This document shows positions 2,800-29,616 of a DNA stretch of 64,000 bases, one piece after another. Location: NCBI GenBank assembly GCA_031402435.1, contig JANNSJ010000015.1, forward strand, positions 132,288 to 196,287. Reading direction: 5' to 3'. Every line of letters begins with the position of its first letter. Position 1 is the stretch's first letter. This DNA is from Bacteroidota bacterium (GTDB lineage Bacteria; Bacteroidota; Ignavibacteria; UBA10030; UBA6906). Made by a program: the position numbers and the translations under genes. Below the pieces are notes generated by a model that saw only the letters and a list, made by a program, of their open reading frames with translations, had not been told where the DNA came from and made no database searches.

Positions 2800-2817
2800 T
2801 TGTACAGTAGTTAACAT

Positions 2818-2890: not shown

Positions 2891-3073
2891 CAAAAGGGAA
2901 CCAAGAGGTTCCCTTTTCTATTCATCCGCCGCACGCCGAGGTCAAAACACGACGCTCCGTGGAATGCTTTGCTCCTCACTCAAATCACCCAATCACCCCT
3001 GTTTGGAAATCAGCATGGAAATTGGTTAATTCATGCTGAAACATTTGCTTTGTCCCATTTCCTCTCGTTCTCC

Positions 3074-4399
3074 ATGGATCCGTTCTGGATCGAAGCAATC
3101 GGCGTACTCTTTCTCATCATCCTTATCGGGCTATTCTCGGCGTGCGAGGTGGCGGTCGTCTCGACGCGCAAGAGCCGCATGAAGGAACTGGCAGACGAGG
3201 GGAACCGCAGCGCCGCCATTGTCCTCCAATTCCAGAACAACCCCGAGCAGTTCCTTGCAACAATCCACGTGGGGGTGGTGTCATTCATGACTCTTGCCTC
3301 TGGGCTGGCCGGCATCATGGGGTTCCAGCACCTTGCACCGGCGCTGCAAGCGAGTGAGACACTATGGATCAGTGAGGGGAGCGGGTGGATCTCGCTGGTG
3401 ATCATGGTTGTCGGCATTGGCTCTCTGGTTGTGGTGCTTGGAGAGCTGGTTCCCAAGTCACTTGCGCTCCGCTTTGCCGAACCCGTGGCTCTTCGCGTTG
3501 CCTCGCCGCTCTCGCTGTTTGCCGCCGTCTTCCGTTATCCCGTCAAACTGCTCACGATGGCGAGCAACCTGTTCCTGATGCCGTTCAAGGACAGGACGTC
3601 GTTCATGGAATCGAGGATCTCCGAAGAGGAACTCAAGCTGATTCTCGTGGAGGGGACGAAGACCGGCGTCATCGACAAGACCGAGCATGAACTGATCGAG
3701 AGCATCTTCGAGTTCACCGATACGACGGCGAAGGAAGTCATGATTCCGCGTCCGGATGTTGTTGCCATCAACATCGATACGCCGCGGGATAAGGTGATCA
3801 AGATCGTGCTCGAAGAGGGCTACTCACGCATGCCGGTCTACAAGGATACGATCGATAATATTCTCGGTGTGGTGTACACCAAGGACCTGCTCGGACTGCT
3901 CGAATACCGCGATCTTATTATTATTCAGGATGTGATTCGTCCGGCGTACTTCATTCCCGAGACCAAGAAGATCAGCAAGCTCATGCGTGAGTTGCAGCAG
4001 AAGAAGCTGCACATGGCCATCATCATTGATGAGTTCGGCGGGACGGAAGGCATTGTGACCATGGAGGACATCCTCGAAGAGATCGTGGGGGAAATCCACG
4101 ATGAGTACGATGAAGTGCTGAAGGACGTGGAGTCCTCCGCTGATGGTTCGTTCCTTGTGAACGCCAGGATTTCCGTGAGCGACTTCAATGAGCGCTTTCA
4201 CACCTCCATCCCCGAAGCGGATGAGTACGACACACTCAGTGGTTACCTCAACAAGCTCTCCGGCCGCATCCCCGACCTCAACGAAGAACTCAAGACCGAG
4301 TCCCTTTCGTTCACCATTGTCAAGAAGAGCCAGCGCCGCATCCGGCTGGTGAAGGTGAAGAAGCTGACGGCGGTGGCGGTTCCGACGAGGCAGGGGTAG
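3074..4399 (+). CDS. CorC/HlyC (TlyC/CNNM) family membrane protein: DUF21 transmembrane domain + CBS pair + CorC_HlyC transporter-associated domain
   Basis: True start almost certainly MDPFWIEAIGVLFLII at 3074. The upstream part of ORF 2849..4399 reads through the tRNA-Ala. TM-rich N-terminus, CBS-like segments (VMIPRPDVVAI..., MAIIIDEFGGTEGIVTMEDILEEIVGEI), C-terminal FTIVKKSQRRIRLVKVKKL typical of CorC_HlyC. Confidence 0.85.
   Translation: MDPFWIEAIGVLFLIILIGLFSACEVAVVSTRKSRMKELADEGNRSAAIVLQFQNNPEQFLATIHVGVVSFMTLASGLAGIMGFQHLAPALQASETLWISEGSGWISLVIMVVGIGSLVVVLGELVPKSLALRFAEPVALRVASPLSLFAAVFRYPVKLLTMASNLFLMPFKDRTSFMESRISEEELKLILVEGTKTGVIDKTEHELIESIFEFTDTTAKEVMIPRPDVVAINIDTPRDKVIKIVLEEGYSRMPVYKDTIDNILGVVYTKDLLGLLEYRDLIIIQDVIRPAYFIPETKKISKLMRELQQKKLHMAIIIDEFGGTEGIVTMEDILEEIVGEIHDEYDEVLKDVESSADGSFLVNARISVSDFNERFHTSIPEADEYDTLSGYLNKLSGRIPDLNEELKTESLSFTIVKKSQRRIRLVKVKKLTAVAVPTRQG
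4306..4393 (+). repeat. Direct repeat copy 1 (native 3' end of the corC-family gene); further copies at 5180..5270 and 6282..6346
   Basis: ttcgttcaccattgtcaagaagagccagcgccgcatccggctggtgaaggtgaagaagctgacggcggtggcggttccgacgaggcag recurs ~90% identical at 5180-5270 and, 5'-truncated, at 6282-6346. Confidence 0.9.
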
Positions 4400-4513
4400 G
4401 TTGGAACAACAACGACATTCATGGAGTGAACACAGTAGTTATGCGGCATTGGTTTGCAAAGTAAATGAAAATCGGGGGAGTGAAAAAGGCGAGAATCTAT
4501 CGGAGGATGAAGG

Positions 4514-4798
4514 TCACTCGTAATGCGTCCACATTCGAATGACTTTAACGATTCGCTGCTCAGGAAGGATCTGGTAGACGAGTCGATGCTGAATGTTTAT
4601 CCGTCGAGAGTATGCACCAGCCAAATCTCCGACTAGCTTTTCATATGGAGGGGGTGTCTGAAAAGGACTGAGTTCGAGAACTTTGAGGAGCCGTTCAGCT
4701 TTTGGTTTTAGTCCTGTTGAAGCTAATTTCTTAGAGTCTTTCTGAGCTTGTTTTGTGAAAACAACAGTCCATCTCACCAAGGAAGCTCCGGTGAACAT
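4514..4798 (-). CDS. yoeB: YoeB/Txe-family type II toxin (RelE/ParE superfamily mRNA interferase)
   Basis: C-terminal half ...AYSRRINIQHRLVYQILPEQRIVKVIRMWTHYE aligns with E. coli YoeB (...WSRRITEEHRLVYAV...CRYHY). True start may be an internal GTG near 4777, abutting the antitoxin stop. Confidence 0.75.
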   Translation of the reverse strand: MFTGASLVRWTVVFTKQAQKDSKKLASTGLKPKAERLLKVLELSPFQTPPPYEKLVGDLAGAYSRRINIQHRLVYQILPEQRIVKVIRMWTHYE

Positions 4799-5010
4799 TT
4801 CTCAACAGGTGTTTTCAGTCCTCGTCGAATCGACTCGCGCATCTTGGGGATCGAAAGCAAATACAAGGTCTCTTGAATTGCACGCCAATCATCAAGTGAG
4901 AGGAGAACCCCTTTGTTTTTCTTCCCGATGATATGGACAGGCTCATGAGACTTTTCAGACTCGTCAAGAAGTCTCGAAAGGTTGGCTCGTGCTGCTGATA
5001 CTGTTTTCAT
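4774..5010 (-). CDS. yefM: YefM/Phd-family antitoxin
   Basis: MKTVSAARANLSRLLDESEKSHEPVHIIGKKNKGVLLSLDDWRAIQETLYLL matches the YefM pattern (SxSEARxNL....PVxIT..G..AVLLS.EEY..L.ET.YLL). Immediately upstream of and overlapping yoeB. ORF-track start 5040 is probably an N-terminal extension. Confidence 0.7.
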   Translation of the reverse strand: MKTVSAARANLSRLLDESEKSHEPVHIIGKKNKGVLLSLDDWRAIQETLYLLSIPKMRESIRRGLKTPVEKCSPELPW

Positions 5011-5314
5011 TAAATTCACCTTATTTGTTTCTATCTTCAAGATAGCTGTTTCTCAGAAGACTGTCAACGAGTTTCAATATCACGACGAAGGCAAACCAAC
5101 GCCGTATGACAACTGCAACAGCGACACTCACATTGTTTGGCAAGGCTATGTTGAACCGCAGTTTGCTCTAAGAATTGAGTTCGTTCACCATTGTCAAGAA
5201 GAGCCAGCGCCGCATCCGGTTGGCGAAGGTGAAGAAGCTGACGGCGGTTGCGGTGCCCACGAGGCAGACATAACCATTGAGACTAATCCTGGAGGGTGAG
5301 ACATAAAAGCAATT

Positions 5315-6283
5315 GTGTATGAAAGATATGGGCCGCCCGATGTTCTTCAATTGAAGGAGGTCGAAAAGCCCACGCCCAAAGACAATGAAGTCCTGATAAA
5401 AATACACGCGACAACGGTAACATCAGGGGACTGGAGGGTACGAAGTCTCAATGTGCCTGCCGGGTTCAGACTAATGTCGCGTCTGTTTTTTGGAGTCTCA
5501 AAACCAAAGCAGCCCATCCTCGGAACGGAACTCGCCGGTGAAATTGAGTCGGTCGGCAAGGACGTAAGCAAATTCAAAGTTGGTGACAAGGTGTTTGCAT
5601 TCAACGATGTGGGCATGGGTTGTTATGCGGAGTATAAATGCATGCCGGAAGCCGGAGCGGTGGCACTCAAGCCGCCCAATCTCACCTACGATGAAGCTGC
5701 CGCATTGTCGTTTGGTGGAACAACGGCGTTGAGTTTCTTCAAAAGAGGAAAACTTCAGAGCGGGGAAAAGGTGCTCGTCAATGGCGCTTCAGGCGGAGTA
5801 GGCACCGCTGCGGTACAGCTTGCCAAACACTTCGGGGCAGAGGTGACCGGAGTGTGCAGTACAACGAACATGGAATTGGTAAAATCGCTGGGTGCCAGTC
5901 ATGTCATTGACTATACCAAAGAGGACTTCACGCAGAATGGTGAAACGTATGGCGTCATTGTCGACACTGCCGGCACGGCGCCGTTCTCACGTTGCAAAGA
6001 TTCGCTAAAGCAAGGCGGGCGCCTTCTTCAAGTATTAGGCGGACTGCCGGACCTGCTTCAGGTTCCTTGGGTGTCGCTCACGAGCAGTAAGAAAGTGATC
6101 GCCGGGCCGGCACCGGGGCGTGCAGAGGATTTGCTTTTCCTTGCGAAGCTGGTTGAGGCGGGAGAATTCAAACCGGTCATTGACCGGTGCTATCCATTCG
6201 AGCAGATCGCTGAGGCTCACCGCTACGTTGATACCGGACGCAAGAGAGGAAATGTTATCATAACTCTGGGGCGTGATGGCTAG
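5315..6283 (+). CDS. Medium-chain dehydrogenase/reductase (zinc-binding ADH / NADPH:quinone oxidoreductase family)
   Basis: 322 aa. GroES-like N-domain (VLIKIHATTVTSGDWRV) and Rossmann motif NGASGGVGTAAVQLAK. Stop codon abuts repeat copy 3. Confidence 0.8.
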   Translation: MYERYGPPDVLQLKEVEKPTPKDNEVLIKIHATTVTSGDWRVRSLNVPAGFRLMSRLFFGVSKPKQPILGTELAGEIESVGKDVSKFKVGDKVFAFNDVGMGCYAEYKCMPEAGAVALKPPNLTYDEAAALSFGGTTALSFFKRGKLQSGEKVLVNGASGGVGTAAVQLAKHFGAEVTGVCSTTNMELVKSLGASHVIDYTKEDFTQNGETYGVIVDTAGTAPFSRCKDSLKQGGRLLQVLGGLPDLLQVPWVSLTSSKKVIAGPAPGRAEDLLFLAKLVEAGEFKPVIDRCYPFEQIAEAHRYVDTGRKRGNVIITLGRDG

Positions 6284-6430
6284 CGCCGCATCTGGCTGGT
6301 GAAGGTGAAGAAGCTGACGGTAGTGGCGGTGCCGACGAGGCAGACAAGTTGAAACAACGACATAATGTCGGCTATCCACCTATGATGGGCTGAACAACGA
6401 CACTCATATCGTATCAGAGGGATCTGTGAT

Positions 6431-7420
6431 ATGGCAACCGAAATCAAGACTTGGCAGATAGTAAACGGTAAGCTCACGGTGGTGAACTCTTCTCTGCCTG
6501 AGAACAATCGCAAAGAGAGGGAAGACCTTGAACGATGGATAAAGAGCAATCCCGAGATTCTCGGGGAAGACATCGCCGTATTTGGTGAGCAAATTCAAAC
6601 CAAATCTGGTCCACTGGACTTCCTCGGAATTGATAACAATGGCAATCTTGTCATCGTTGAACTGAAGCGTGACCACCTTCCGAGAGAGGTTCTCGCACAA
6701 GCCATAGACTACGCATCTGATGTTTCAACGTGGGAGATTGATAAGCTTGGTGAAATCTGTCAAGCATTCACTGGTCAGAACCTTGAAGACTTCTTTGCCC
6801 AAAAGTTTCCAGATACGTCTATCGAGGAATTGGTAATCAATCAAGCCCAACGACTTCTCCTTGTCGGGTTCTCAATTGAAGAATCTCTGAACCGAATGAT
6901 CGAGTGGCTTTCATCCAAATACAGCATTGGCATCAACGCTATCATTCTCAAGTATGTCAAGACATCGAACGGGGACGAGCTTCTTTCCCGCACAGTTATC
7001 ATCCCCGAAGAAGTTGAGCGAGAGAAGACAAACAAGAAGAAGTTTGTAATCGCAAAGTCAAACGAGCCTGGGAACTATGATGAAGCAACGGTGAAGGAGA
7101 AGCTGACTCAATACTTATCCCTGGATATGTATTCCGCCAAACGAATTAGAGACTACGTTCTTCCGATTCTACTCAAGAACGAGGTAACGACGAGAGAGGA
7201 AATGCGGAAAGAGTTTATTAAGATGGGCGGCGCAACCGAAAGTCAGGCGGGGTATTTTCTGGCTCTCATTTCCAGTCAACTTGGTTTCAAGTGGAACGAT
7301 TTTCTCAGGCAAGTAATCAAATATGAATTCCCGAACAACGAGTGGGAGAAAGACAACTTCACTATCCGAACAGAGTACCGTGACCTTGTCAAACAAGTCT
7401 TGAAGAATCTTGGAAAATAG
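6431..7420 (+). CDS. PD-(D/E)xK nuclease-superfamily protein (NucS/DUF91/Shedu-like restriction-endonuclease fold) with uncharacterised helical C-terminal domain
   Basis: N-terminal region DLERWIKSNPEILGEDIAVFGEQIQTKSGPLDFLGIDNNGNLVIVELKRD carries the D...(D/E)xK arrangement (D-x-n-ELK) typical of NucS-like/restriction-endonuclease-like domains. Confidence 0.6.
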   Translation: MATEIKTWQIVNGKLTVVNSSLPENNRKEREDLERWIKSNPEILGEDIAVFGEQIQTKSGPLDFLGIDNNGNLVIVELKRDHLPREVLAQAIDYASDVSTWEIDKLGEICQAFTGQNLEDFFAQKFPDTSIEELVINQAQRLLLVGFSIEESLNRMIEWLSSKYSIGINAIILKYVKTSNGDELLSRTVIIPEEVEREKTNKKKFVIAKSNEPGNYDEATVKEKLTQYLSLDMYSAKRIRDYVLPILLKNEVTTREEMRKEFIKMGGATESQAGYFLALISSQLGFKWNDFLRQVIKYEFPNNEWEKDNFTIRTEYRDLVKQVLKNLGK

Positions 7421-7606
7421 ACCGTGCCCAACAGCGACAAACTGCGTCGCCACTCAATTTGCAAGGCTCGGCCAAAACATGTTGGAGCAAGCTCAGAAAG
7501 AGTTTGCTTCACACAGCACTCCATTGTAAAGAGCGCGGAGTGCGGCTGCCGTAGTTTGCGGCACGCATCCTGCTCAACTGCTTTTCATAATAGAAAGATT
7601 GCTCGA

Positions 7607-8521
7607 ATGCCGTTGTACAAACTAGCACACAAGCAGCTTGAACTCATCAAAGAGAATTCATTCAGGCTGGAGAAGGAAGTGCAAGAGATTGTCGAGGCAA
7701 ATATGGACTCTCTTTTTGGGTCAAAACTTGTCAGGCATGAGTTTTCCCTTAGTGGATTGAGAATCGATACGCTTGGATACGACAAGGATGCTCAATCGTT
7801 TGTCATCATCGAGTACAAGAGGGGATCGAACTATTCGGTTGTGGACCAGGGAATGGCTTACCTCGGATTGATGCTCAACAACAAAGCTGAGTTCATTTTG
7901 GAATACAACGAGAGATGTAATGCTTCTCTCAAACGGGATGACGTTGACTGGTCTCAATCGAAGGTGATCTTCATCTCGCCCTCATTCACAAGCTTTCAGC
8001 TTGAGGCAATCAACTTCAAGGATTTGCCGATTGAGTTGTGGGAAGTAAAACGTTACTCAAACAACACTGTCAGGTTCGACCAACACAAGCCAACGGCTAC
8101 GGTTGCTTCCATTAAGACTGTGTCAAAGAAGAGCGAGGTAGTCGAAGCAATTAACAGGGAGGTAAAGACCTACACCGAAGAAGCTCATTTGAAAGTAGCT
8201 CAGCCGACCATTGCTGAAATGTACACTAGATACAAGGAGCTTGTGTTAGCTATTAGCCCTGAGTTGTCTGTCAAACCGATGAAATGGTACATTGCCTTCC
8301 GTGCGAAGACGAATATTACCGATGTTGTTGTTCTCAAGAAGTCACTTAAGATTTTCATCAACTTGCCGAAAGGTAAATTGGAGGACCCAAAAAAGCTCGT
8401 CCGCGATGTTTCAAAAGTCGGGCACTGGGGCAACGGCGACTATCAGATTCAGATCAGTACGGACGATGAATTAGAGTATATCATCTCCCTAGTCCGGCAG
8501 GCGTACAAACTGAACGAATAG
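7607..8521 (+). CDS. Second PD-(D/E)xK nuclease-like protein (paralog-like N-domain) with C-terminal domain containing a GHWGNGDY motif (DUF5655-like?)
   Basis: Likely start MPLYKLAHK (ATG 7607); ORF-track start 7424 is an extension. EKEVQEIVEANMDSLFGSKLVRHEFSLSGLRIDTLGYDKDAQSFVIIEYKRG repeats the nuclease-core pattern of the upstream gene. Confidence 0.55.
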   Translation: MPLYKLAHKQLELIKENSFRLEKEVQEIVEANMDSLFGSKLVRHEFSLSGLRIDTLGYDKDAQSFVIIEYKRGSNYSVVDQGMAYLGLMLNNKAEFILEYNERCNASLKRDDVDWSQSKVIFISPSFTSFQLEAINFKDLPIELWEVKRYSNNTVRFDQHKPTATVASIKTVSKKSEVVEAINREVKTYTEEAHLKVAQPTIAEMYTRYKELVLAISPELSVKPMKWYIAFRAKTNITDVVVLKKSLKIFINLPKGKLEDPKKLVRDVSKVGHWGNGDYQIQISTDDELEYIISLVRQAYKLNE

Positions 8522-8610
8522 CTGTGACCAAGCGGCGCTCTTTCATTTGATAAGGCTCTATTGGTAAATGTCCAACGCCCCAATAAAGTAGAGTCGATCT
8601 TGACGCCACA

Positions 8611-8667
8611 ACCCCGCTTTAGTCAAAGACACCTGGGAAATCGGCGAGGCGTACGATTCATTCATCG
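8611..8667 (+). repeat. Partial duplicate of the 5' end of the downstream SAM-methyltransferase gene (second copy 9985..10042)
   Basis: agtcaaagacacctgggaaatcggcgaggcgtacgattcattcatcg vs agtcatggacacatgggaaatcggagaggcgtacgattcattcatcg (4 mismatches in 47 nt). Encodes DTWEIGEAYDSFI in both. Confidence 0.85.
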
Positions 8668-8687
8668 TCAGGGGTCAGGCTATAGAT

Positions 8688-9242
8688 ATGGAGGAAACAC
8701 GCATGCGTAAAATCGTATCTGCTTCAGTGGCGATCATGGTGACGGGCTGGTTGACGGCTTTCGGAGTCCCATGCTACGCGATACCTTTGCCTTTGGAATC
8801 CCAGGATCAAGCCGGGCAAGAACCAGTTGTCGGTAAGGAATTTCAAGCCATGATGGCTAAGGTCGATACCGCCCAGCTTGAACTCCAAAACGGGAGGGTG
8901 GAAGCCTTCAAGGCACTCTGGTCTCATGCTGACGATGTTACCCTTTCGGGAGGGTTCGGCGGTGCAATTGAAAAGGGATGGAGAAATGTCAGCAAGCGGC
9001 TCGATTGGGTTGGCGGGCAGTTTTCGAAGGGTACGAATACCATCGAGCGGATTGTGGTAAATGCAAATAGTGACCTTGCCTATGTGGTGCAGATCGAGCA
9101 CATCCGTTTTCACGTTCCAGGTCAGGCAAAAGAGTCGGCCCGCGACTACAGGGTAACGATGGTGTTCCGACGCGAGTCTGAGGGTTGGCGTATCGTCCAT
9201 CGCCATGCAGATTCGCAGATGATGAAACAGGCGCCGAAGTAA
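8688..9242 (+). CDS. Secreted NTF2-like (SnoaL/DUF4440-type) protein
   Basis: Signal peptide (IVSASVAIMVTGWLTAFG). Motifs FKALWSHADDVTLSGGFGG...YRVTMVFRRESEGWRIVHRHAD fit the nuclear-transport-factor-2-like fold family. Confidence 0.55.
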   Translation: MEETRMRKIVSASVAIMVTGWLTAFGVPCYAIPLPLESQDQAGQEPVVGKEFQAMMAKVDTAQLELQNGRVEAFKALWSHADDVTLSGGFGGAIEKGWRNVSKRLDWVGGQFSKGTNTIERIVVNANSDLAYVVQIEHIRFHVPGQAKESARDYRVTMVFRRESEGWRIVHRHADSQMMKQAPK

Positions 9243-9251
9243 CTGTCGTCC

Positions 9252-9956
9252 TTGCCATTCATCGGCTCCATATGGTTCGCCACGCTTTTGATATTTTCCT
9301 TACGGTCGGAATGTTCTGCTCAAGAGGAGGACTACGGAATCGGAATAATCATTCCTCCGGGCGGCGGTAATATGCACGCTGTCATCTACTCCAAGCCTTA
9401 TGTTGGTTCCGATACCATAGCCACTCTTACGAAATGGGAGTACACCTTTCACGGCCACAACGAGAAAGTGCGTCCCTACCTCGCAGGGTTTCACAGGTAT
9501 GACTATTGGGGAGTACCCATTCTGTCCATAAGCCACGACTCCTCTTGGGCAGAGGTCTTCGTTGCATCCTCCGATTGGACAACAAAAACGAAAGGGTGGA
9601 TCAACCTCAAAATTCCCAACACTACCGTTCGTGTCTGGGCAGACTTTCTGCGGACGCAATCAATGGTCTTGAACGGTAATAATCCTCCACGGTTCTACTC
9701 CAAGCCAAACAAGAGTGCCCCGCTCAGCATGAACCTGTTTCGCTTTCGCAGTCTGGACGAATTTAGTTACATTCTCAAACCCATTCGACGAGAAGGGCGT
9801 TGGTTACTCGTTGAGCTTCACACTCCATTTCTCCCCTGTGCCGATGAAGATGCGGTCGTGCACGAGCCCGGCCTTCACCCGCGAACAACCAGAGTGTGGA
9901 TTGAATACATAGACGAGCGAGGGCGACCGCTCGCTCAAGCTCCAATGATGTGCTGA
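9252..9956 (+). CDS. Hypothetical secreted protein
   Basis: 234 aa, N-terminal signal peptide (IWFATLLIFSLRSECSAQ). No recognisable motif. Lies between the two methyltransferase-5'-end repeat copies. Confidence 0.5.
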   Translation: MPFIGSIWFATLLIFSLRSECSAQEEDYGIGIIIPPGGGNMHAVIYSKPYVGSDTIATLTKWEYTFHGHNEKVRPYLAGFHRYDYWGVPILSISHDSSWAEVFVASSDWTTKTKGWINLKIPNTTVRVWADFLRTQSMVLNGNNPPRFYSKPNKSAPLSMNLFRFRSLDEFSYILKPIRREGRWLLVELHTPFLPCADEDAVVHEPGLHPRTTRVWIEYIDERGRPLAQAPMMC

Positions 9957-9975
9957 CAGCAAAGAGTTCACAATC

Positions 9976-10782
9976 TTGAAACCAGACCCTCACTCAGTCA
10001 TGGACACATGGGAAATCGGAGAGGCGTACGATTCATTCATCGGACGCTGGAGCTTGCCGGTAGCGAGGGAATTTGTGCAATGGCTTGCAGCTTCTCCTAA
10101 GAGCAAATGGCTTGATGTCGGCTGCGGTACCGGAGCGCTGAGTCGAACCATCGTTGAGCTGGTTGATCCTGCAGAAGTACATGGAATCGATTCGGCACAA
10201 GGGTTCATCTCGTTTGCACAGGAGCGAACCAGTGATCGTCGGGTAACCTTTGCCGTGGGCGATGCGGAATCCCTTCAGGTGCAAGCGGGCGTGTACAACG
10301 CAGCAGTCTCGGCTCTTATGCTCAACTTTGTTTCTCGTCCTGATAAGATCGTCTCAGAGATGCAGCGTGTGGTAAAGCCCGGTGGGGTTGTAGCCTTCTA
10401 TGTTTGGGACTACGCGGAACGAATGCAGTTGCTGCGTTACTTTTGGGATGTGGCGGTGTCTCTCAATCCGGCAGTCTCCGCTTTGGATGAGGGAAAGAGA
10501 TTTCCGCTTTGCAATCCCGACCGGCTCAACGATCTCTTCGTTGCTCAGGGTCTGCACAACATCGAGGTGAGAGCGATTGAGGTGCCTACTCAGTTCTCTG
10601 ACTTTGATGATTACTGGAAACCATTTCTTGCCGGTCAGGGACCTGCGCCGGGTTACGTTGCTTCTCTTACTCCACAAAAGCAGGTAGCAATAAGAGAACG
10701 CCTTCGCACCACTCTGCCTATTGCGACTGACGGAACGATCAGCCTGGTGGCGCGTGCATGGGCTGTGAAAGGCAACGCGTAA
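9976..10782 (+). CDS. Class I SAM-dependent methyltransferase (Methyltransf_11-like)
   Basis: LDVGCGTGALSRTIVEL (motif I), VKPGGVVAFYVWDY (post-II). Confidence 0.8.
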   Translation: MKPDPHSVMDTWEIGEAYDSFIGRWSLPVAREFVQWLAASPKSKWLDVGCGTGALSRTIVELVDPAEVHGIDSAQGFISFAQERTSDRRVTFAVGDAESLQVQAGVYNAAVSALMLNFVSRPDKIVSEMQRVVKPGGVVAFYVWDYAERMQLLRYFWDVAVSLNPAVSALDEGKRFPLCNPDRLNDLFVAQGLHNIEVRAIEVPTQFSDFDDYWKPFLAGQGPAPGYVASLTPQKQVAIRERLRTTLPIATDGTISLVARAWAVKGNA

Positions 10783-10835
10783 ACTACGAACCCGCAATGA
10801 CGTAAAAGATCGAAATGCAGAAAGAGAAGGAGTAA

Positions 10836-11501
10836 ATGAAGATCAACGCAATACTTTTCGGAGCCACCGGTATGGTGGGAGAGGGAGTCCTCATCGAAGC
10901 TCTCGCGCATCAGCACGTGGAATCAGTCCTGGTGATCGGTAGAAGGTCATGCAACAGGACTCATCCCAAACTCAAAGAACTGATCCATACTGACTTCTTT
11001 GACTACTTGAACATCGAAGCGCAACTCAAGGGATTTAATGCGTGCTTTTTCTGCCTCGGATCTTCCTCGTTGGGAATGAATGAACAGGATTACACAAGGT
11101 TGACGTACGATCTCACGATGCAGGCAGCAAGGACACTCTCCAGACTTAATCCTGATATGACGTTCTGTTATGTGTCGGGGACAGGAACCAATGAACATGG
11201 CCGCAGTATGTGGGCGCGGGTGAAGGGAAGAACGGAGGGCCATCTGGCAAAGCTGCCATTCAAAGCGGCGTACTCGTTCAGGCCGGGACTGATGAAGCCC
11301 AACAAGGGACAGAAGAATGTCAAAGCGATTTTCAAGATGGCGGGATGGTCGTATCCTCTGTGGAAGTTCTTGTTCCCCGGGGGCGTGTGCAAGTTGGAGG
11401 ATCTGGGCCTTGCGATGATTCACACTGTTGAGATGGGCTACTTAAAGCAGATTCTTGAGAATAGAGACATCACTCAGGTTGCAAAGGGTTCGCACACATG
11501 A
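10836..11501 (+). CDS. NAD(P)H-binding domain protein (atypical SDR/NmrA-like)
   Basis: N-terminal Rossmann ILFGATGMVGEGVL. 221 aa. Confidence 0.7.
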   Translation: MKINAILFGATGMVGEGVLIEALAHQHVESVLVIGRRSCNRTHPKLKELIHTDFFDYLNIEAQLKGFNACFFCLGSSSLGMNEQDYTRLTYDLTMQAARTLSRLNPDMTFCYVSGTGTNEHGRSMWARVKGRTEGHLAKLPFKAAYSFRPGLMKPNKGQKNVKAIFKMAGWSYPLWKFLFPGGVCKLEDLGLAMIHTVEMGYLKQILENRDITQVAKGSHT

Positions 11502-11713
11502 GCCGTGCATTCATGAAAGAGAGCGATGATCAATGGTTGCATGACGTTGCTCCAACCATGAGTGCGCTGCTTACGTACCTGACACGGGAGAACAACGGCA
11601 TCAGAGTCTTTGAGGAAAAGAGATCCATCGCTCCGGATGGCCTTGAGGTGTATGAAATGAGCAACGGTTTATCCTACTCAAAAGATGATGAAGGTCAATG
11701 GCGGGTTGTGTGA
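11498..11713 (+). CDS. Small hypothetical protein (71 aa)
   Basis: ATGA start/stop overlap with upstream gene. No recognisable motif. Confidence 0.3.
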   Translation: MSRAFMKESDDQWLHDVAPTMSALLTYLTRENNGIRVFEEKRSIAPDGLEVYEMSNGLSYSKDDEGQWRVV

Positions 11714-11966
11714 AGAACAACCCAACGGTAGCGCCGACCTGCCTTGCCGGACATGTTTCTCAATGCAGGCAGGCATTCTTGTCGGCAGCGAGATAACTCT
11801 AAGCGGCAAACAAGAATGCTTGCCCCACCAGTTATTTCCTGTAAACAAATACGATCTCGACGTTGTCATTGTAAACTGCCCCACGTTTTTGCCTGAATCC
11901 TTTCCACGTTGAGCACGTAAGAGACGGAAGTTGTTCCATTCCTATCTCACTCACAAGGATTCATTC

Positions 11967-13184: not shown

Positions 13185-13212
13185 ATCTTGGGGGACGCTA
13201 CGGTATGAAACA

Positions 13213-13240
13213 CAAGCGGCGCCTCGCTCGGCGCCGCTTG
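13213..13240. terminator. Bidirectional rho-independent terminator between convergent genes
   Basis: Perfect 11-bp stem caagcggcgcc/ggcgccgcttg with 6-nt loop, T/A-rich flanks, between the stop of 11967..13184 (+) and the stop of 13269..16112 (-). Confidence 0.7.
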
Positions 13241-13268
13241 CAAATATATCTCTCTTCCAACTCCACAT

Positions 13269-16112: not shown

Positions 16113-16344
16113 TGCTTCTCCAAACCATTTGTGAATAATGGGGTAAAATGGAATTCAAGGATGAATCTGTCAGGGAAGGTTTCTAGGAAAATATACGGGA
16201 ACATTTTTCAAGAAGCAATGAATTCAGGCAGTGTTTCAGTTGCGAAACCACAGTAGCGGCCATGTTGGTTAGTTCGGAGTTTTTAGCATATATTTCACAA
16301 CATGGGTTACTCGTATCACTGTTTGTCAATCCTGACACGGATCA

Positions 16345-17211: not shown

Positions 17212-17214
17212 TTA

Positions 17215-21191: not shown

Positions 21192-21192
21192 C

Positions 21193-24128: not shown

Positions 24129-24134
24129 CAGCTT

Positions 24135-25136: not shown

Positions 25137-25146
25137 GAAGGCTGCC

Positions 25147-25860: not shown

Positions 25861-26438
25861 TGAAGATCGGAATCCTGGGCGGGACGTTCAATCCTCCACA
25901 TGTCGGACACTTGATCGTTGCCGAACGAGTCCGTGAAGAACTTGCACTCGATACCATTCTGTTCATTCCTTCCGCTGTCTCACCCCACAAACAACATCTT
26001 CAGCCGGTTGATGCGATCTGTCGGATGGAGATGGTGCGTCTTGCCGTGCAAGGACAGCCGCACTTCAGTACTTCGGACATCGAGGTGTCCCGCGGTGGAA
26101 TATCCTACACTATTGACACGCTTGAACAACTCAAGCAACTGCATCCCGGTGACAACTTGTACCTGCTTATCGGCATGGACAACCTCACAGAGTTCAACAC
26201 ATGGAAATCTCCGGAGAAGATCGTCGAGCTGGCTGGTCTTGTTGTCATGACACGACCCGGCTTTGAACCGAATGGAGTTCTTCAAGAATACCGGAAGAAG
26301 TTGACACTCTGCCAGGTGCCCGAGATCGGGATTTCATCAAGCGAGATTCGAGAGCGAGTGAAACAAGGGAAGTCCATCCGATACCTTGTGCCGCAGGCAG
26401 TGGAGTCGTACATTCACGCCAGGAAGTTGTATCGTTGA
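25860..26438 (+). CDS. nadD: Nicotinate-nucleotide adenylyltransferase
   Basis: MKIGILGGTFNPPHVGHL (HxGH motif), ISSSEIRERV. Confidence 0.85.
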   Translation: MKIGILGGTFNPPHVGHLIVAERVREELALDTILFIPSAVSPHKQHLQPVDAICRMEMVRLAVQGQPHFSTSDIEVSRGGISYTIDTLEQLKQLHPGDNLYLLIGMDNLTEFNTWKSPEKIVELAGLVVMTRPGFEPNGVLQEYRKKLTLCQVPEIGISSSEIRERVKQGKSIRYLVPQAVESYIHARKLYR

Positions 26439-26449
26439 AAGGAGGTTCA

Positions 26450-27019
26450 ATGGTAAAACCCCGTGTGTTGGTGCCTGAAGTTATCGAGCGGAGAATTCTT
26501 CTTGTTCGTGGACAGAAGGTGATGCTGGATGCACATCTCGCAGAGCTTTATGGAGTTGAGACAAAAACACTTAAGAGAGCTGTCAAGAGGAACATGGATC
26601 GCTTCCCGGGAGATTTCATGCTTGAGTTGACCAAGGAGGAGTCCGACTCTTTAAGGTACCAATTTGGCACCTTAAAGAGGGGAGCACACACGAAGTACAC
26701 ATCATTTGTGTTCACCGAACAAGGTGTAGCCATGCTTTCCACCGTTCTCAAGAGTAAACCAGCCATTCAGGTCAATATTGAAATCATGCGGGCATTCGTC
26801 CGACTGCGAGAGATACTCTCAACACACAAAGACCTTGCCCGCAAGCTTGAAATGCTTGAGAAGAAATACGATGAGCAATTCAGTATTGTCTTTGAGGCGA
26901 TCCGACAACTCATGACTCCGCCCGATCCACCAAAGAAACGTCCCATAGGGTTTGGTGTTGAAGAACCCAAAGTGAAGTACCGCTCGAAGCCGTCGCGATG
27001 GCCGCAGTGGCAACGGTGA
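26450..27019 (+). CDS. ORF6N domain protein (KilA-N-like DNA-binding, phage antirepressor family)
   Basis: IRGQKVMLDAHLAELYGVETKTLKRAVKRNMDRFPGDFMLEL is the ORF6N signature. Confidence 0.7.
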   Translation: MVKPRVLVPEVIERRILLVRGQKVMLDAHLAELYGVETKTLKRAVKRNMDRFPGDFMLELTKEESDSLRYQFGTLKRGAHTKYTSFVFTEQGVAMLSTVLKSKPAIQVNIEIMRAFVRLREILSTHKDLARKLEMLEKKYDEQFSIVFEAIRQLMTPPDPPKKRPIGFGVEEPKVKYRSKPSRWPQWQR

Positions 27020-27023
27020 TCTA

Positions 27024-27091
27024 CCATTTTCACTAAAGTTTCCCACCAAAACCGTAGCCCTCATAGCTCAACAGTATAGAGCACAGGTTTC
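27024..27091 (+). repeat. Truncated duplicate of tRNA-Arg 5' half plus ~30 nt of its upstream region (partner copy 29392..29459)
   Basis: ccattttcactaaagtttcccaccaaaaccgtagccctcatagctcaacagtatagagcacaggtttc vs ccattttcactaaatttttccaccaaaaccgtagccctcatagctcaacaggatagagcacaggtttc. Confidence 0.85.
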
Positions 27092-27286
27092 TCCCCTTCC
27101 TCCCAGAAATTCCCAATGAATAGCCCATTCGCTTGACAATCGTATTTCCTTTGTGTACGATACCAGCGAATTGCCGGGAGAATTTCAATCCACTCTCCTC
27201 CTTTCGGCCGGTTCGCCGCATTACCAATGCACCCTCTGCATAGCGAGCTCCGGTCGTTCGTTTAGCCAACCACAGTGTGAACCGGT

Positions 27287-29332
27287 ATGAATTCATCGGA
27301 CGAACATCGCAGCCTCGCAGCCATCATGTTTACTGACATGGTGGGGTATAGCGCTCTGGCACAGGCAGACGAAGCTCTGGCCATTGAACTGCTTGAAGAG
27401 CAAAGAAGCATTCTGCGCGCACTGTTTACGAAGCATCACGGGCATGAGATCGAAGCCATTGGTGATGGTTTCTTCGTTGAATTTGCCAGCTCACTTGAGT
27501 GTGTTCAGTGCGCCATCGACATCCAAAAAACTTTATTCTCGCGAAACGACGGGGTGGCTGCCGAACGGAGGATTCGCGTGCGCATTGGCCTGCACGTTGG
27601 CGATGTTGTACACAAGGAAGGCCGCGTGCATGGGCACGGCGTGAACATTGCCGCGCGTCTCGAGCCCATTGCGCCGCCAGGTGGAATCTGCCTTTCTGAA
27701 GACATCGCCCGCCAGATAACAAATAAAATTGACCTGCCACTGGAGAAACTCGGGGCGATACCGTTGAAGAACATCAGCCAACCGATGAGCTTATACAGGG
27801 TTGTTCTCCCATGGGACCAGCAGCCGCGTGGTTCGTCCGTACAGTCTGCCATGAGCGTCATAGGAAAACATCGGCGCGCCGTTATTGTGGCCGTTATTGC
27901 GATCGTTGCGGTTGCAGCTTTCTCGCTCTTCGTCTTCAAACAATCCAGTGTTGGAAGAGAACATTTCCTCGCCGTGCTGCCTTTCAAGAATATGAACGAG
28001 AAGGGGGAGGGGGATTATTTTAGCGATGGCATTACTGAAGACGTGATTATGCACCTCTCACGGGTCAACAGATTTCGGGTGACGTCACGAACGTCCATTA
28101 TGCCGTACAAGAATTCGGAGAAGAGTCTGCAGGATATTGGCAGGGAACTCGGTGTGCAGTATGTGCTGGAAGGAAGTGTTCGCCGCGTGGGCGACCGTAT
28201 TCGCATTGTTGCCCAGTTGATTGATGCGGCCATTGATGCCCACATTTGGTCGGAGACATACGACCAGGACTATACAAATATTCTCTCGATTCAAACCGAT
28301 GTTGCAAAAAAAATAGCAAAGGCATTGCAGCCGTCGCTTACGCCTACCGAGACGCAGCGCATTGAATCTCCTCCGACAGAAAATCTTGAGGCGTACGAAC
28401 TCTACATGAAGGGGCGTTACCAGTGGAACAAACGTATGCCCGCTGCCCTTCACAAGAGCGTCACATACTTCCAGGAAGCGATCCGCCAGGATTCGACATT
28501 TACAATTGCCTATGCCGGTTTGGCGGATGCATATATCCTGCTGGGAGACTACACGGAGTTGCGCCCTGAAGATGCATTTGCGAAAGCAAAAGCAATGGCG
28601 CAAAAAGCCATCCGACTCGACCCTGACCTGCCTGAAGCACACACCTCGCTTGGGTATGCCATCATGCACTACGATTGGGATTGGGAAGCAGCCTCAAAGG
28701 AATTCGAGCGTGCAATACAACTCTCCCCAAATAGTGCACAGGCTCATAGCTGGTATGCACTCCTTCAGGCCGTCCGAGGAAAGAACGATGAGGCAATACG
28801 GCTCATCAACAAGGCGCAGGAGTTGGATCCATTCTCTGCTGTCATTCGCACTGACGCTGGATTGGTGTTGTATTTGCTCCGGAAATACGAGATGGCAAAG
28901 GAACAGTGCCGGAAAGCGATGGAGCTTGACCCTATGTTCGGCGCCGCGTATATGCTTGACGGAGCTCTCAAAGAACAGACGGGAAGGAATGCGGAGGCAA
29001 TTGAGAGATACTCACAGATCAGCGCGATGTCACCTGGACATCAAATGATCATAGCCGCTCTTGGACATGCCTTTGCCGCTGGTGGAAAAAAAGAAGATGC
29101 AGAGAATATGCTTGAGCTTCTCCAGGACAAGGCAAAGGGTCAGTATGTGGCCTCGTATTGCTTCGCTGCAATCTACGCAGGCCTAGAGCAACGCGATCAA
29201 TCGATTGCATGGCTTGAACGCGCCTATCATGATCGGGACGGCTTATTACTCTTTCTTGCAGTTGATCCTCGATTTGATAAACTGAGAACTGATATCAGGT
29301 TTATGCGATTGTTGAAACAGATCGGTTTCTGA
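27287..29332 (+). CDS. Adenylate/guanylate cyclase catalytic domain protein with transmembrane helix and C-terminal TPR repeats
   Basis: AIMFTDMVGYSAL...IGLHVGDVV...GVNIAARLE (class III cyclase motifs). Hydrophobic stretch AVIVAVIAIVAVAAFSLFVF. TPR-like repeats in the C-terminal half. Confidence 0.85.
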   Translation: MNSSDEHRSLAAIMFTDMVGYSALAQADEALAIELLEEQRSILRALFTKHHGHEIEAIGDGFFVEFASSLECVQCAIDIQKTLFSRNDGVAAERRIRVRIGLHVGDVVHKEGRVHGHGVNIAARLEPIAPPGGICLSEDIARQITNKIDLPLEKLGAIPLKNISQPMSLYRVVLPWDQQPRGSSVQSAMSVIGKHRRAVIVAVIAIVAVAAFSLFVFKQSSVGREHFLAVLPFKNMNEKGEGDYFSDGITEDVIMHLSRVNRFRVTSRTSIMPYKNSEKSLQDIGRELGVQYVLEGSVRRVGDRIRIVAQLIDAAIDAHIWSETYDQDYTNILSIQTDVAKKIAKALQPSLTPTETQRIESPPTENLEAYELYMKGRYQWNKRMPAALHKSVTYFQEAIRQDSTFTIAYAGLADAYILLGDYTELRPEDAFAKAKAMAQKAIRLDPDLPEAHTSLGYAIMHYDWDWEAASKEFERAIQLSPNSAQAHSWYALLQAVRGKNDEAIRLINKAQELDPFSAVIRTDAGLVLYLLRKYEMAKEQCRKAMELDPMFGAAYMLDGALKEQTGRNAEAIERYSQISAMSPGHQMIIAALGHAFAAGGKKEDAENMLELLQDKAKGQYVASYCFAAIYAGLEQRDQSIAWLERAYHDRDGLLLFLAVDPRFDKLRTDIRFMRLLKQIGF

Positions 29333-29424
29333 AAGTGCCTTGAGCACCTCCAGGATTTTTCCCCGCAGACTGAAGTGCTTGCTTGCAACCTCCATTTTCA
29401 CTAAATTTTTCCACCAAAACCGTA

Positions 29425-29497
29425 GCCCTCATAGCTCAACAGGATAGAGCACAGGTTTCCTAAACCTGGAATCGAGGTTCGAGTCCCCGTGAGGGCA
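29425..29497 (+). tRNA. tRNA-Arg (anticodon CCU)
   Basis: GCCCTCA-TA-GCTC..GAGC-A-CAGGT-TTCCTAA-ACCTG-..-TTCGAGT-..-TGAGGGC-A. CCA not encoded. Confidence 0.85.
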
Positions 29498-29526
29498 CAA
29501 GGGATTTATGATTGTTGATTTTGGAT

Positions 29527-29616
29527 TGTGGATTGAAAAGCAGAACAATCCACGAATAGACACGAATAACACGAAGTAAAGAGCGGATCCACTAAGGACA
29601 CGAAGAAACACGAATC
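29527..29616 (+). repeat. Inverted repeat (tgtggattg/caatccacg) followed by five direct ACACGAA heptamers
   Basis: cCACGAAtagACACGAAtaACACGAAg...ggACACGAAgaaACACGAAtc, immediately 3' of tRNA-Arg and 5' of proS. Confidence 0.7.

What the first reader, a model, noticed from the sequence alone, without database searches (positions are those of the whole stretch)
4306..29459. Recurring signature: three separate loci in this window show insertions flanked by duplicated termini of the target gene
Three loci share the same footprint: insertion next to or inside a gene, with re-creation of that gene's terminus as a direct repeat.
- corC 3' end: 3 copies.
- MTase 5' end: 2 copies.
- tRNA-Arg 5' half plus leader: 2 copies.
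None has a recognisable integrase or transposase in the window. This could be one mechanism acting repeatedly, for example a trans-acting site-specific recombinase or a satellite-like cassette system. It could also simply mark hot spots of illegitimate duplication. The density, three loci in 64 kb, is unusual.
Basis: inference. Interest (0 to 1): 0.55.

Follow-up and report, generated by a model that had tools for sequence, protein, structure and literature searches.

The report
Gene-end duplications flanking swapped gene cassettes
Three spots in this Ignavibacteriota-type genome carry small inserted genes flanked by a second copy of the neighbouring gene's end; these are most likely scars of strain-to-strain recombination at variable, defence-gene-rich sites, not the work of a dedicated new mobile-element system.

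Summary
corC's 3' end occurs three times (4306-4393, 5180-5267, 6279-6343). A methyltransferase 5' end occurs twice (8597/8621-8667, 9972/9996-10042). The tRNA-Arg(CCT) leader plus 5' half occurs twice (27024-27091, 29392-29459). No recombinase was found among 60 ORFs scanned. The same scan over about 1.98 Mb of relatives' corC neighbourhoods found nothing comparable.

A sister strain (97% nt identity) carries a different toxin-antitoxin cassette at the same corC site. That cassette is again followed by a corC-end copy. The sister strain lacks the dehydrogenase cassette, so locus 1 is polymorphic. Loci 2 and 3 are shared by both strains and are therefore older.

The three loci share no junction core and no hairpin structure. 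The corC copies have a fixed right edge at the stop codon and variable left edges. corC divergence between the strains jumps from about 0.25% to about 5% in the 660 nt next to the cassettes, and the repeat copies differ by a similar 4-9%.

Best reading (confidence about 0.5): additive, homology-anchored recombination between strain variants, by Campbell-type single crossover or an HFIR-like event. A recombinase acting in trans on satellite-like cassettes is not excluded (about 0.2). Interest is moderate: a new example of a known kind.

The parts
3074..4399 (+). corC (CNNM + CBS + CorC_HlyC), the intact target gene. Its last 88 nt (4306-4393) are repeat copy 1.
   Evidence: Pfam. Repeat D4. 97.2% nt identity to sister strain L166.
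4394..4457 (+). Own stop codon (GGG TAG) plus a shortened native-type corC tail after copy 1. Contains the motif AACAACGACATTCAT (4408-4422) and the left arm of a 25-nt inverted repeat (4433-4457).
   Evidence: Alignment A3 against the L166 copy-2 tail. Motif search. Inverted repeats.
4514..5040 (-). Cassette 1: YoeB-type toxin (4514-4798 or 4514-4777) and Phd/YefM antitoxin (4774-5040). Absent from the sister strain, which has a Gp49/HTH pair here instead.
   Evidence: Pfam. L166 gene table and sequence.
5180..5267 (+). corC 3'-end copy 2 (94% to copy 1), followed by ACA TAA. A relic of the corC end that preceded the dehydrogenase cassette. Weak similarity may extend left to about 5166.
5303..6283 (+). 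Cassette 2: zinc-type alcohol dehydrogenase / quinone oxidoreductase. Its stop codon abuts the left edge of copy 3. Absent from the sister strain.
   Evidence: Pfam. Sequence. blastn against L166.
6279..6343 (+). corC 3'-end copy 3 (92% to copy 1 over 65 nt), the presumed original corC end. Orthologous to L166 copy 2.
6344..6410 (+). Native corC tail: ACA AGT TGA stop, palindrome CGACATAATGTCG, and a second AACAACGACACTCAT motif. 88% identical to the tail after L166 copy 2.
8597..8667 (+). Relic copy A of the methyltransferase 5' end (TTG start region plus about 22 codons; core 8621-8667 is 91% to copy B). Present in more degraded form in the sister strain.
8688..9956 (+). Insert of locus 2: SnoaL_3 protein (8688-9242), shared with the sister strain at 92% nt, plus a 234-aa protein of unknown family (9252-9956) that the sister strain lacks.
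   Evidence: Pfam..
9972..10782 (+). Intact class-I SAM methyltransferase. Its first 71 nt are repeat copy B. Only 83% nt identity to the sister strain's allele.
   Evidence: Pfam..
27024..27091 (+). Relic copy of the tRNA-Arg(CCT) leader (33 nt) plus 5' half (35 nt). It begins 5 nt after the ORF6N stop codon and ends at the first anticodon base.
   Evidence: ARAGORN and Rfam call no tRNA here.
27092..29391 (+). Insert of locus 3: 195-nt upstream region plus an adenylate/guanylate-cyclase + TPR protein (27287-29332). Present in the sister strain (96% nt); absent in L012 and L003.
   Evidence: Pfam..
29392..29498 (+). Leader copy 2 plus the intact tRNA-Arg(CCT) gene (29425-29498), followed by proS.

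Best explanation
The duplicated gene termini are recombination scars, not attachment sites of a dedicated element.

This Ignavibacteriota-type lineage exists as co-occurring strains that differ by about 5% in some blocks and by 0-0.5% in others. The spots downstream of corC, upstream of the methyltransferase and upstream of tRNA-Arg are variable islets holding toxin-antitoxin pairs, candidate defence genes and other accessory genes.

The proposed event is as follows (inferred). DNA from a strain with a different neighbour gene pairs with the conserved anchor gene (corC, the methyltransferase, or tRNA-Arg/proS) by homologous recombination. The other end is not resolved by a second homologous crossover. 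Either the incoming piece was circular and integrated by one crossover (Campbell-type), or its free end was joined illegitimately inside the resident gene terminus (HFIR-like). Both routes add the donor's cassette together with a complete gene terminus. The resident terminus is pushed outward as a truncated direct repeat.

Repeating this at corC stacked two cassettes in the window, with the newest next to corC. Selection retains only outcomes that keep the anchor gene intact, which is why a full gene always sits at one side.

Shown: the repeats, the geometry, the strain polymorphism, the divergence step in corC, the absence of recombinases in the ORFs scanned, and the absence of a shared core or hairpins. 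Inferred: the recombination route, the circular or linear nature of the donor DNA, and the order of events.
For: 1. Polymorphism. A sister strain (CorC 439/440 aa over the aligned residues, 97.2% nt) has a different TA cassette (Gp49 + HTH) in the same place, again followed by a corC-end copy plus the native tail. It lacks the dehydrogenase cassette.

2. Lineage origin. Copies 2 and 3 carry the lineage-specific last ~15 codons of corC that the 82-84% relatives lack, so they come from this lineage and not from a foreign element.

3. Tail on copy 1. The window's copy 1 is followed by a shortened native-type tail before the TA genes, while copy 2 is not. The TA cassette therefore arrived together with a corC end plus tail from another strain.

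4. Edges. The left edges of the distal copies differ (equivalent to window positions 4276, 4287-4306 and 4329, the last at the dehydrogenase stop codon). The right edge is the end of the corC reading frame, which is where homology between alleles in different contexts would naturally stop.

5. Divergence step. corC divergence between the strains goes from 1/400 nt (3332-3731) to 32/662 nt (3732-4393) next to the cassettes. This looks like a recombination-tract boundary in the anchor gene. The same blockwise pattern appears around tRNA-Arg/proS.

6. Copy divergence. The copies differ by 4.4-8.5%, the same range as the diverged blocks between strains.

7. No common core and no structure. The three loci share no junction core beyond shuffled expectation, and no repeat unit folds better than shuffles (z from -1.4 to +1.1).

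8. No recombinase. None was found among 60 window ORFs, and no attP-like counterpart was found in IMG/VR.

9. Experimental precedent. A single crossover between a circular molecule carrying a truncated homologous segment and the chromosome duplicated 109-950 bp of that segment in 56 of 60 recombinants (PMC3240628). HFIR has been proposed for additive 'orphan' arrays in T6SS and Rhs loci (PMC5361080).
Against: - Two independent cassettes (the window dehydrogenase and the L166 Gp49/HTH pair) begin within 3 nt of each other, right after ...ACGAGGCAG. This hints at a preferred site.
- The tRNA-Arg repeat ends exactly in the anticodon loop, the classical crossover zone of tRNA-targeting tyrosine integrases.
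- One SNP (GAAG[C/T]TGACGG) is C in all three window copies and T in both L166 copies. That fits in-genome copying or gene conversion better than import.
- Classical HFIR usually deletes recipient DNA instead of duplicating it (PMC3240628). Homology of 65-118 nt is short for RecA-driven crossover.
- No donor strain with corC directly followed by the dehydrogenase or the YoeB/YefM pair was found.
- The footprint is enriched in this lineage: none in about 1.98 Mb of relatives. This could point to a lineage-specific factor.
- The blockwise divergence between two MAGs could partly be strain-chimeric assembly.
Confidence: 0.5

Rival explanations
1. [quoted passage not shown] Each new arrival integrates into the reconstituted gene end and pushes older ones outward. 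Different recombinases would serve corC, the methyltransferase and tRNA-Arg.
For: - Direct repeats of a target-gene terminus flanking inserted DNA, with the gene reconstituted, are the hallmark of integrative elements. Tandem arrays separated by partial tRNA or gene-end copies are known from CIME/ICE accretion (PMC5704250) and tycheposons (10.1101/2020.12.28.424599).
- All five corC-end copies share the same right edge (...ACGAGGCAG), and two cassettes start within 3 nt of it.
- The tRNA-Arg repeat ends in the anticodon loop.
- The cassette site is polymorphic between strains.
- The footprint is specific to this lineage.
Against: - No integrase, excisionase or transposase among 60 window ORFs, nor in the 13 kb of L166.
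- No common core among the three loci.
- The left edges of the corC copies differ by up to about 50 nt.
- The YoeB/YefM cassette sits after a tail, not at the GAGGCAG edge.
- It is the 5' half plus leader of the tRNA that is duplicated. From my own knowledge (Williams 2002, not re-read here), tRNA-targeting integrative elements normally carry the 3' part.
- Four cassettes of 0.8-2.4 kb would each need to have lost everything except cargo while keeping both att sites.
- No attP-like match in IMG/VR.
- None of about 160 relatives has extra corC-end copies.
Confidence: 0.2
2. Three unrelated local accidents. Each would be an in-situ duplication of a gene terminus created at the moment a foreign fragment was captured, for example by replication template switching or microhomology-mediated repair. 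Both copies would start identical and then diverge, and nothing would link the loci.
For: - No shared motif and no recombinase.
- Variable edges.
- One SNP is shared by all copies within each genome.
- Other insertions in the same region (NucS-like pair, unk234, ORF6N) have no flanking repeats, so the repeats are not an obligatory feature of insertion here.
Against: - Copy 1 carries a native-type tail that copy 2 lacks, so copy 1 and its downstream sequence cannot simply be a copy of the resident end.
- A different TA cassette with the same architecture occupies the same site in the sister strain.
- There is a divergence step in corC next to the cassettes.
- Three such accidents in 30 kb, plus one in 13 kb of the sister strain, against none in about 1.98 Mb of relatives is hard to reconcile with independent rare events.
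Confidence: 0.15
3. Assembly artefact: co-existing strain variants were concatenated in a metagenome-assembled contig.
For: - At least three strains at 97-98.6% identity occur in runs with closely numbered accessions (SRR20217196, SRR20217205, SRR20217213).
- The junctions copy1-TA-copy2 are not covered by any independent contig, and the TA genes are not on record in Logan.
Against: - Logan contigs from two runs reproduce the window exactly across five of the junctions.
- The sister MAG, assembled separately, shows corC - TA - corC-end copy as well and the AC-TPR - leader - tRNA-Arg junction.
- A path from a cassette end back into the middle of corC's 3' end cannot arise from a simple strain bubble (inference).
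Confidence: 0.04
4. An integron-like array in which the corC-end copies act as attC-type folded recombination sites.
For: - Single-gene or single-operon cassettes of 0.8-1.1 kb in tandem, including toxin-antitoxin cassettes, all in one array next to a fixed site.
Against: - No IntI-type integrase was found.
- The repeat units do not fold better than shuffled sequence on either strand.
- One cassette is on the opposite strand.
- The repeats are simply the coding end of corC.
Confidence: 0.02

Closest known systems
Campbell-type single-crossover integration of a circular molecule carrying a partial homologous segment (experimentally: duplications of 109-950 bp of lacZ; PMC3240628)
   Same: The insert is flanked by direct repeats of the homologous segment. 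One repeat is part of an intact gene and the other is truncated at the circle junction. No dedicated recombinase is needed. The edge varies from event to event.
   Different: Here the homology is only 65-118 nt. The circular donor is hypothetical. The events occurred in nature between strains at three loci and were stacked at one of them.
Homology-facilitated illegitimate recombination and the 'orphan module' arrays of T6SS, Rhs and CDI loci (PMC5361080 and references therein)
   Same: A conserved gene acts as the anchor and new modules are added next to it. Older material, including a fragment of the anchor gene, is pushed outward, giving strain-specific arrays.
   Different: In those systems the repeated fragment precedes an alternative functional C-terminal toxin domain. 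Here only 1-3 codons and a stop follow, and the cargo is unrelated to corC. Classical HFIR usually deletes recipient DNA instead of duplicating it.
Tandem accretion of integrative elements and CIMEs (cis-mobilizable elements) at the 3' end of a gene or tRNA (Pavlovic et al. 2004, as cited in PMC5704250)
   Same: Several copies of the target gene's end separate recombinase-less segments, with the newest element next to the intact gene. The content is polymorphic between strains.
   Different: No integrase was found. The repeat edges are not constant. The cassettes are 0.8-2.4 kb single genes, not decayed ICEs or IMEs. Two of the three loci duplicate a 5' end.
Tycheposon islands of Prochlorococcus (bioRxiv 10.1101/2020.12.28.424599)
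   Same: Islands are seeded at a tRNA. Partial tRNA copies are scattered between cargo segments. Successive integrations push older ones inward.
   Different: Tycheposons carry tyrosine recombinases, and integrase fragments are found in the islands. None is seen here. The tRNA part duplicated here is the 5' half plus leader.
Integron cassette arrays
   Same: Small promoter-containing or promoterless single-gene cassettes, including TA pairs, are stacked at one site.
   Different: No IntI and no attC-like folding. The repeats are coding sequence of the neighbouring gene.

Membership tests
Site-specific integrative element / CIME tandem accretion | Direct repeats (attL/attR) derived from the target gene terminus flank the inserted DNA, and the target gene is reconstituted | tested here: met
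Site-specific integrative element / CIME tandem accretion | A tyrosine or serine recombinase in the element or nearby, or identified in trans | tested here: not met
   None among 60 window ORFs nor in L166.
Site-specific integrative element / CIME tandem accretion | Recombination at a fixed short core, so repeat edges are the same for every element at that site | tested here: inconclusive
   The right edge is constant (...ACGAGGCAG) in five copies. The left edges differ (equivalent to 4276, 4287-4306 and 4329), and one cassette sits after the tail.
Site-specific integrative element / CIME tandem accretion | Empty or differently occupied site in close relatives | tested here: met
   L166 has another TA cassette and no dehydrogenase cassette. 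L012 has CTP-transferase directly followed by tRNA-Arg.
tRNA-targeting integrase elements | The element carries the 3' part of the tRNA from the crossover to the end, so the 3' part is what is duplicated | tested here: not met
   The leader plus 5' half is duplicated. The crossover-zone criterion (anticodon loop) is met. The defining feature is taken from my own knowledge (Williams 2002), not re-read here.
Homology-anchored additive recombination (Campbell-type single crossover / HFIR-like) | Direct duplication of a segment homologous to the resident chromosome flanking the insert, with one event-specific edge | tested here: met
   Precedent in PMC3240628.
Homology-anchored additive recombination (Campbell-type single crossover / HFIR-like) | An imported tract in the anchor gene next to the insert, seen as a step in divergence | tested here: met
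   corC goes from 0.25% to about 5% at about position 3732. Caveat: this is a comparison of two MAGs, and strain-chimeric assembly could mimic it.
Homology-anchored additive recombination (Campbell-type single crossover / HFIR-like) | The two repeat copies differ by about the donor-recipient divergence | tested here: met
   Copies differ by 4.4-8.5%; diverged blocks between strains are 4-6%.
Homology-anchored additive recombination (Campbell-type single crossover / HFIR-like) | Microhomology at the illegitimate joint; existence of donor strains or circles | not testable with these tools
   No donor-type strain is in the collections.
Integron / CALIN | attC sites that fold into imperfect hairpins; IntI integrase | tested here: not met
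   Fold z-scores from -1.4 to +1.1 on both strands. No integrase.
Transposon / MITE | Terminal inverted repeats plus short target-site duplication; transposase in cis or trans | tested here: not met
   Only the YoeB/YefM pair has a 25-nt imperfect inverted repeat. It is unique in the window and loci and absent from the L166 cassette. The other inserts have none.
Polymorphic-toxin orphan arrays (Rhs/CDI/T6SS) | The repeated fragment of the main gene is followed by an alternative C-terminal domain and an immunity gene | tested here: not met
   Only 1-3 codons and a stop follow each corC-end copy.

The most novel reading that the evidence does not exclude
The gene-end copies may be functional 'portable homology'. 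In that reading, small one-gene cassettes (repeat periods 821-2368 bp) loop out as circles by recombination between flanking copies. They then re-insert at the same gene end in other cells, either by RecA alone or with a still unseen recombinase acting in trans. This would be an integron-like cassette exchange system without integrase or attC, feeding defence and TA genes into fixed chromosomal spots in an Ignavibacteriota lineage.
Probability: 0.15. Interest if true: 0.7.

Novelty: new member of a known kind. Interest (0 to 1): 0.35.

Why it matters
If the favoured reading holds, this is a clean natural example of how flexible, defence-rich islets can grow additively without any mobile-element machinery. 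It was read from two strains of an uncultured soil or sediment lineage. It also cautions against calling every duplicated tRNA or gene end an att site.

If the minority reading holds (cassettes that travel with their own piece of the target gene), it would describe a new low-tech route of cassette exchange. That route could be tested by read recruitment.

Tried and rejected
- Exact-protein look-ups for CorC and for the TA genes under three start-codon choices found nothing on record. The copy1-TA-copy2 junctions therefore remain unconfirmed by a second assembly.
- The JGI metagenome scan gave no same-species contig; the best CorC match was 82%.
- The genome-collection scan gave 80 corC loci, none with extra corC-end copies.
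- A shared junction motif was rejected.
- attC-like or hairpin sites were rejected.
- Rfam found nothing at the tails or repeats.
- The idea that the recurring tail motif or the 25-nt inverted repeat marks a mobile element was not supported. Both are confined to the corC tail or to a single cassette.
- No relic of the corC tail was found just upstream of gene 16345.
- IMG/VR scans for the three repeat cores returned only chance 20-30-nt matches.
- The polymorphic-toxin 'orphan C-terminus' idea was rejected because nothing but a stop codon follows the copies.
- A Xer/dif-like site in the tail palindrome was considered from memory only. The tail does not resemble the remembered dif consensus, and this was not tested further.

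Full report
**1. What is in the sequence**

A window-wide repeat search finds three short direct-repeat families outside coding repeats.
- D4 has three copies: 4306-4393, 5180-5267 and 6256-6343.
- D8 has two copies: 8621-8667 and 9996-10042.
- D7 has two copies: 27024-27091 and 29392-29459.

The other families in that search are WD40 repeats and glycosyltransferase paralogy.

Copy 1 of D4 is the end of an intact corC gene (3074-4399; CNNM, CBS and CorC_HlyC domains). Copy 2 is 94% identical over 88 nt. Copy 3 is homologous over only 65 nt (6279-6343, 92%), because the bases to its left are the end of a dehydrogenase gene. Each copy is followed by 1-3 codons and an in-frame stop: GGG TAG, ACA TAA and ACA AGT TGA.

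D8 is the 5' end of a SAM methyltransferase. With one indel it extends to about 71 nt (8597-8667 vs 9972-10042) and includes the TTG start codon.

D7 is 33 nt of leader plus the first 35 nt of tRNA-Arg(CCT), ending at the first anticodon base.

The inserts between the copies are:
- a YoeB/YefM toxin-antitoxin pair on the minus strand;
- a zinc-type dehydrogenase;
- a SnoaL_3 protein plus a 234-aa protein of unknown family;
- an adenylate-cyclase + TPR protein.

**2. Is it real and non-random?**

Logan contigs from two sequencing runs match the window at 100% and are colinear. L164 equals 5349-10053, L165 equals 6228-9136 and L163 equals 27045-29440. They cover five of the junctions.

The junctions around the TA pair (4394-5349) are not covered, and the TA genes are not on record there. 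A separately assembled sister strain shows the same architecture (see section 4).

I ran the same blastn self-scan over all fetched loci of other genomes, about 1.98 Mb from about 160 records. The criteria were direct repeats of 40-200 nt, at least 88% identity, 0.3-6 kb apart. It found only a 30-nt tandem array (L048) and the sister strain's corC-end copy. The window gave all three families. A separate per-locus search for extra corC-end copies found none in 78 genome loci, and that method recovered both extra copies in the window as a positive control.

**3. Recombinase inventory**

Pfam scans of 60 window ORFs found no integrase, transposase, excisionase or reverse transcriptase. These are all but one of the non-overlapping ORFs of 150 aa or more, plus the small genes of the islets. 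The exception is 63373-63885, which was not scanned. The 33-64 kb half is housekeeping: dnaE, alpha-2-macroglobulin, PBP1, aspS, prfB and an ABC transporter. The rest of the genome could not be read.

**4. Comparative evidence**

The window belongs to an Ignavibacteriota-type lineage. The nearest species representatives have 82-84% CorC identity.

In at least 11 relatives corC is followed within 30-100 bp by the ortholog of window gene 16345 (a GT2 glycosyltransferase) and then by the ortholog of 17215. The whole stretch 4400-16344 is therefore variable material. In L012 the CTP-transferase gene is followed directly by tRNA-Arg and proS. L003 has one methyltransferase gene in between. The spot upstream of tRNA-Arg is therefore also variable.

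The key find is a sister strain, GCA_031379955.1. Its CorC (P0121) is 439/440 identical over the aligned residues, and its DNA is 97.2% identical over window 1932-4393.

Downstream of corC the sister strain has, in order:
- its own stop (CAG TGA);
- a different TA pair (HTH_3 antitoxin and Gp49 toxin, minus strand);
- a corC-end copy (95% to its own corC end);
- a tail that is 88% identical to the window's copy 3 plus tail;
- a degraded methyltransferase-5' relic plus SnoaL (92% to the window);
- the methyltransferase directly after that (83% to the window).

Relative to this strain the window has:
- a different TA cassette;
- the dehydrogenase cassette;
- the two NucS-like genes;
- the 234-aa gene.

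Only the first two of these are bounded by corC-end copies.

Locus 2 (relic, SnoaL, methyltransferase) is shared by both strains. So is locus 3, at least at its right side: AC-TPR, leader, tRNA-Arg at 96% identity, with the sister contig ending inside AC-TPR. Both loci therefore predate the strain split.

**5. Anatomy of the corC copies**

All five copies (three in the window, two in the sister strain) end at ...ACGAGGCAG, which is the last conserved codon of corC.

The distal copies start at different points: equivalent to window 4276 (sister strain), 4287-4306 (window copy 2) and 4329 (window copy 3, exactly at the dehydrogenase stop codon).

The copies carry the lineage-specific last ~15 codons that the 82-84% relatives lack. 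They therefore originate within this lineage.

The window's copy 1 is followed by a shortened version of the native tail (to about 4445) before the TA genes, whereas copy 2 is followed by ACATAA and the dehydrogenase. The TA cassette must therefore have arrived together with a corC end and tail from another strain.

**6. Tests of the site-specific models**

- The best word shared by the three junctions, or by the three whole units, is 6-7 nt with one mismatch. Shuffles give the same.
- None of the units folds better than shuffled sequence on either strand.
- Rfam finds only the two tRNAs.
- Scans of IMG/VR for the three repeat cores give no hit or only chance 20-30-nt matches.
- A 25-nt imperfect inverted repeat brackets the YoeB/YefM pair. 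It is unique in the window and loci and has no counterpart in the sister strain's cassette.

**7. Evidence for homologous exchange**

Between the two strains, corC divergence is as follows:
- 1.5-2% over 2332-3331;
- 1 difference in 400 nt over 3332-3731;
- 32 differences in 662 nt over 3732-4393, the part that abuts the cassettes.

The same blockwise pattern (0-0.8% against 4-6%) is seen from AC-TPR through proS. The methyltransferase alleles differ by 17%.

The repeat copies differ from each other by 4.4-8.5%, which is the level of the diverged blocks.

Caveat: both sequences are metagenome-assembled, and strain-chimeric consensus could contribute to the blocks.

**8. Interpretation**

The geometry is the same at all three loci: the resident gene terminus truncated at an event-specific point, then the insert, then a complete gene continuing into conserved sequence.

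This is the product expected from one homologous crossover with a circular molecule that carries part of the gene plus the cassette. That outcome has been shown experimentally to duplicate 109-950 bp of the homologous segment in 56 of 60 recombinants (PMC3240628). It is also the product expected from a homology-anchored event with an illegitimate second joint, as proposed for additive orphan arrays in T6SS and Rhs loci (PMC5361080).

The fixed right edge of the corC copies is then simply the end of the conserved reading frame.

I put this at about 0.5.

**9. What does not fit**

- Two independent cassettes start within 3 nt of each other.
- The tRNA repeat ends in the anticodon loop.
- One SNP groups the copies by genome.
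- HFIR normally deletes recipient DNA instead of duplicating it.
- No donor-type strain was found.
- The footprint is strongly enriched in this lineage.

These points keep a recombinase acting in trans on satellite or CIME-like cassettes alive at about 0.2 (PMC5704250; tycheposons). Unrelated in-situ events stand at about 0.15. Assembly artefact and an integron-like array are unlikely.

**10. Verdict**

This is a further example of known recombination or accretion footprints. It occurs in an uncultured lineage, at islets that carry TA pairs and PADLOC candidate defence genes (PDC-S11, PDC-S18, PDC-S05). Interest is moderate. The value lies in the clean two-strain comparison and in the testable minority reading that the gene-end copies act as portable homology for cassette exchange.

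Noticed in passing
window 4400-16344: The whole stretch between corC and the GT2 gene at 16345 is absent in at least 11 related species, where corC is followed within 30-100 bp by the 16345 ortholog. It is an ~11.9-kb variable island holding TA, dehydrogenase, NucS-like, SnoaL, methyltransferase, NAD-binding, PQQ-propeller and reprolysin-like genes.
   Followed up: partly
window 6431-7420, 7424-8521, 26435-27019: These genes match PADLOC candidate defence families: PDC-S11 (4e-46), PDC-S18 (3e-131) and, for the ORF6N protein, PDC-S05 (1e-55). The variable spots look like small defence islets. The AC-TPR protein has only a weak Pycsar-cyclase hit (7e-5).
   Followed up: partly
window 4433-4457 and 5091-5115: A 25-nt imperfect inverted repeat (84% complementary) brackets the YoeB/YefM pair. 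Its outer 11 nt on the left belong to the native corC tail. It is unique in the window and absent from the sister strain's TA cassette. It could be an inversion or fold-back footprint.
   Followed up: partly
window 4408-4422, 5117-5131, ~6349-6363, 6393-6407; L166 ~12148-12200: The motif AACAACGACAYTCAT recurs only in and around the corC tails (13 matches at up to 3 mismatches against 4.4 expected; the exact ones are all here). A perfect palindrome CGACATAATGTCG lies at 6357-6369. There is no Rfam match and the function is unknown.
   Followed up: partly
window 5303-5317: The dehydrogenase's expected N-terminus (M-KAIVYERYG) is encoded with ATA where the Met codon should be. The first usable start is GTG at 5315. 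This may be early decay of the cassette gene.
   Followed up: no
window 9263-9970: The 234-aa gene of unknown family is an indel between the two strains. The sister strain has about 25 nt here, with no flanking repeat. ORF6N (26435-27019) is likewise absent from L012 and L003 without a repeat. Not all insertions here leave duplications.
   Followed up: partly
window 94-1932 vs L166 7290-8857: The WD40-repeat gene upstream of the TylF-type methyltransferase is replaced in the sister strain by a methyltransferase and a 140-aa gene. Homology between the strains begins at window 1932. This is another variable spot on the other side of corC.
   Followed up: no
window 1932-4393 and 27665-33000 vs L166/L167: Divergence between the two strains is blockwise: blocks of 0-0.8% against blocks of 4-6%. 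The methyltransferase is 83% and SnoaL 92% identical. This indicates frequent homologous exchange with a ~5% diverged lineage, or strain-chimeric MAG consensus.
   Followed up: partly
window 29500-29735: The spacer between tRNA-Arg and proS is 13-18% divergent between strains. It has short GATTGTG and CACGAATAGA repeats and a ~40-nt window-specific indel (about 29665-29705) with hairpin potential.
   Followed up: partly
window 2818-2891: A tRNA-Ala(GGC) gene lies 180 nt upstream of corC. The longest ORF call for corC (from 2849) overlaps it, so the true corC start is the ATG at 3074.
   Followed up: yes
L048 14458-14982: A relative's locus contains a 30-nt-period tandem array (about 17 units). 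It was the only other hit of the background repeat scan and is unrelated to the finding.
   Followed up: no
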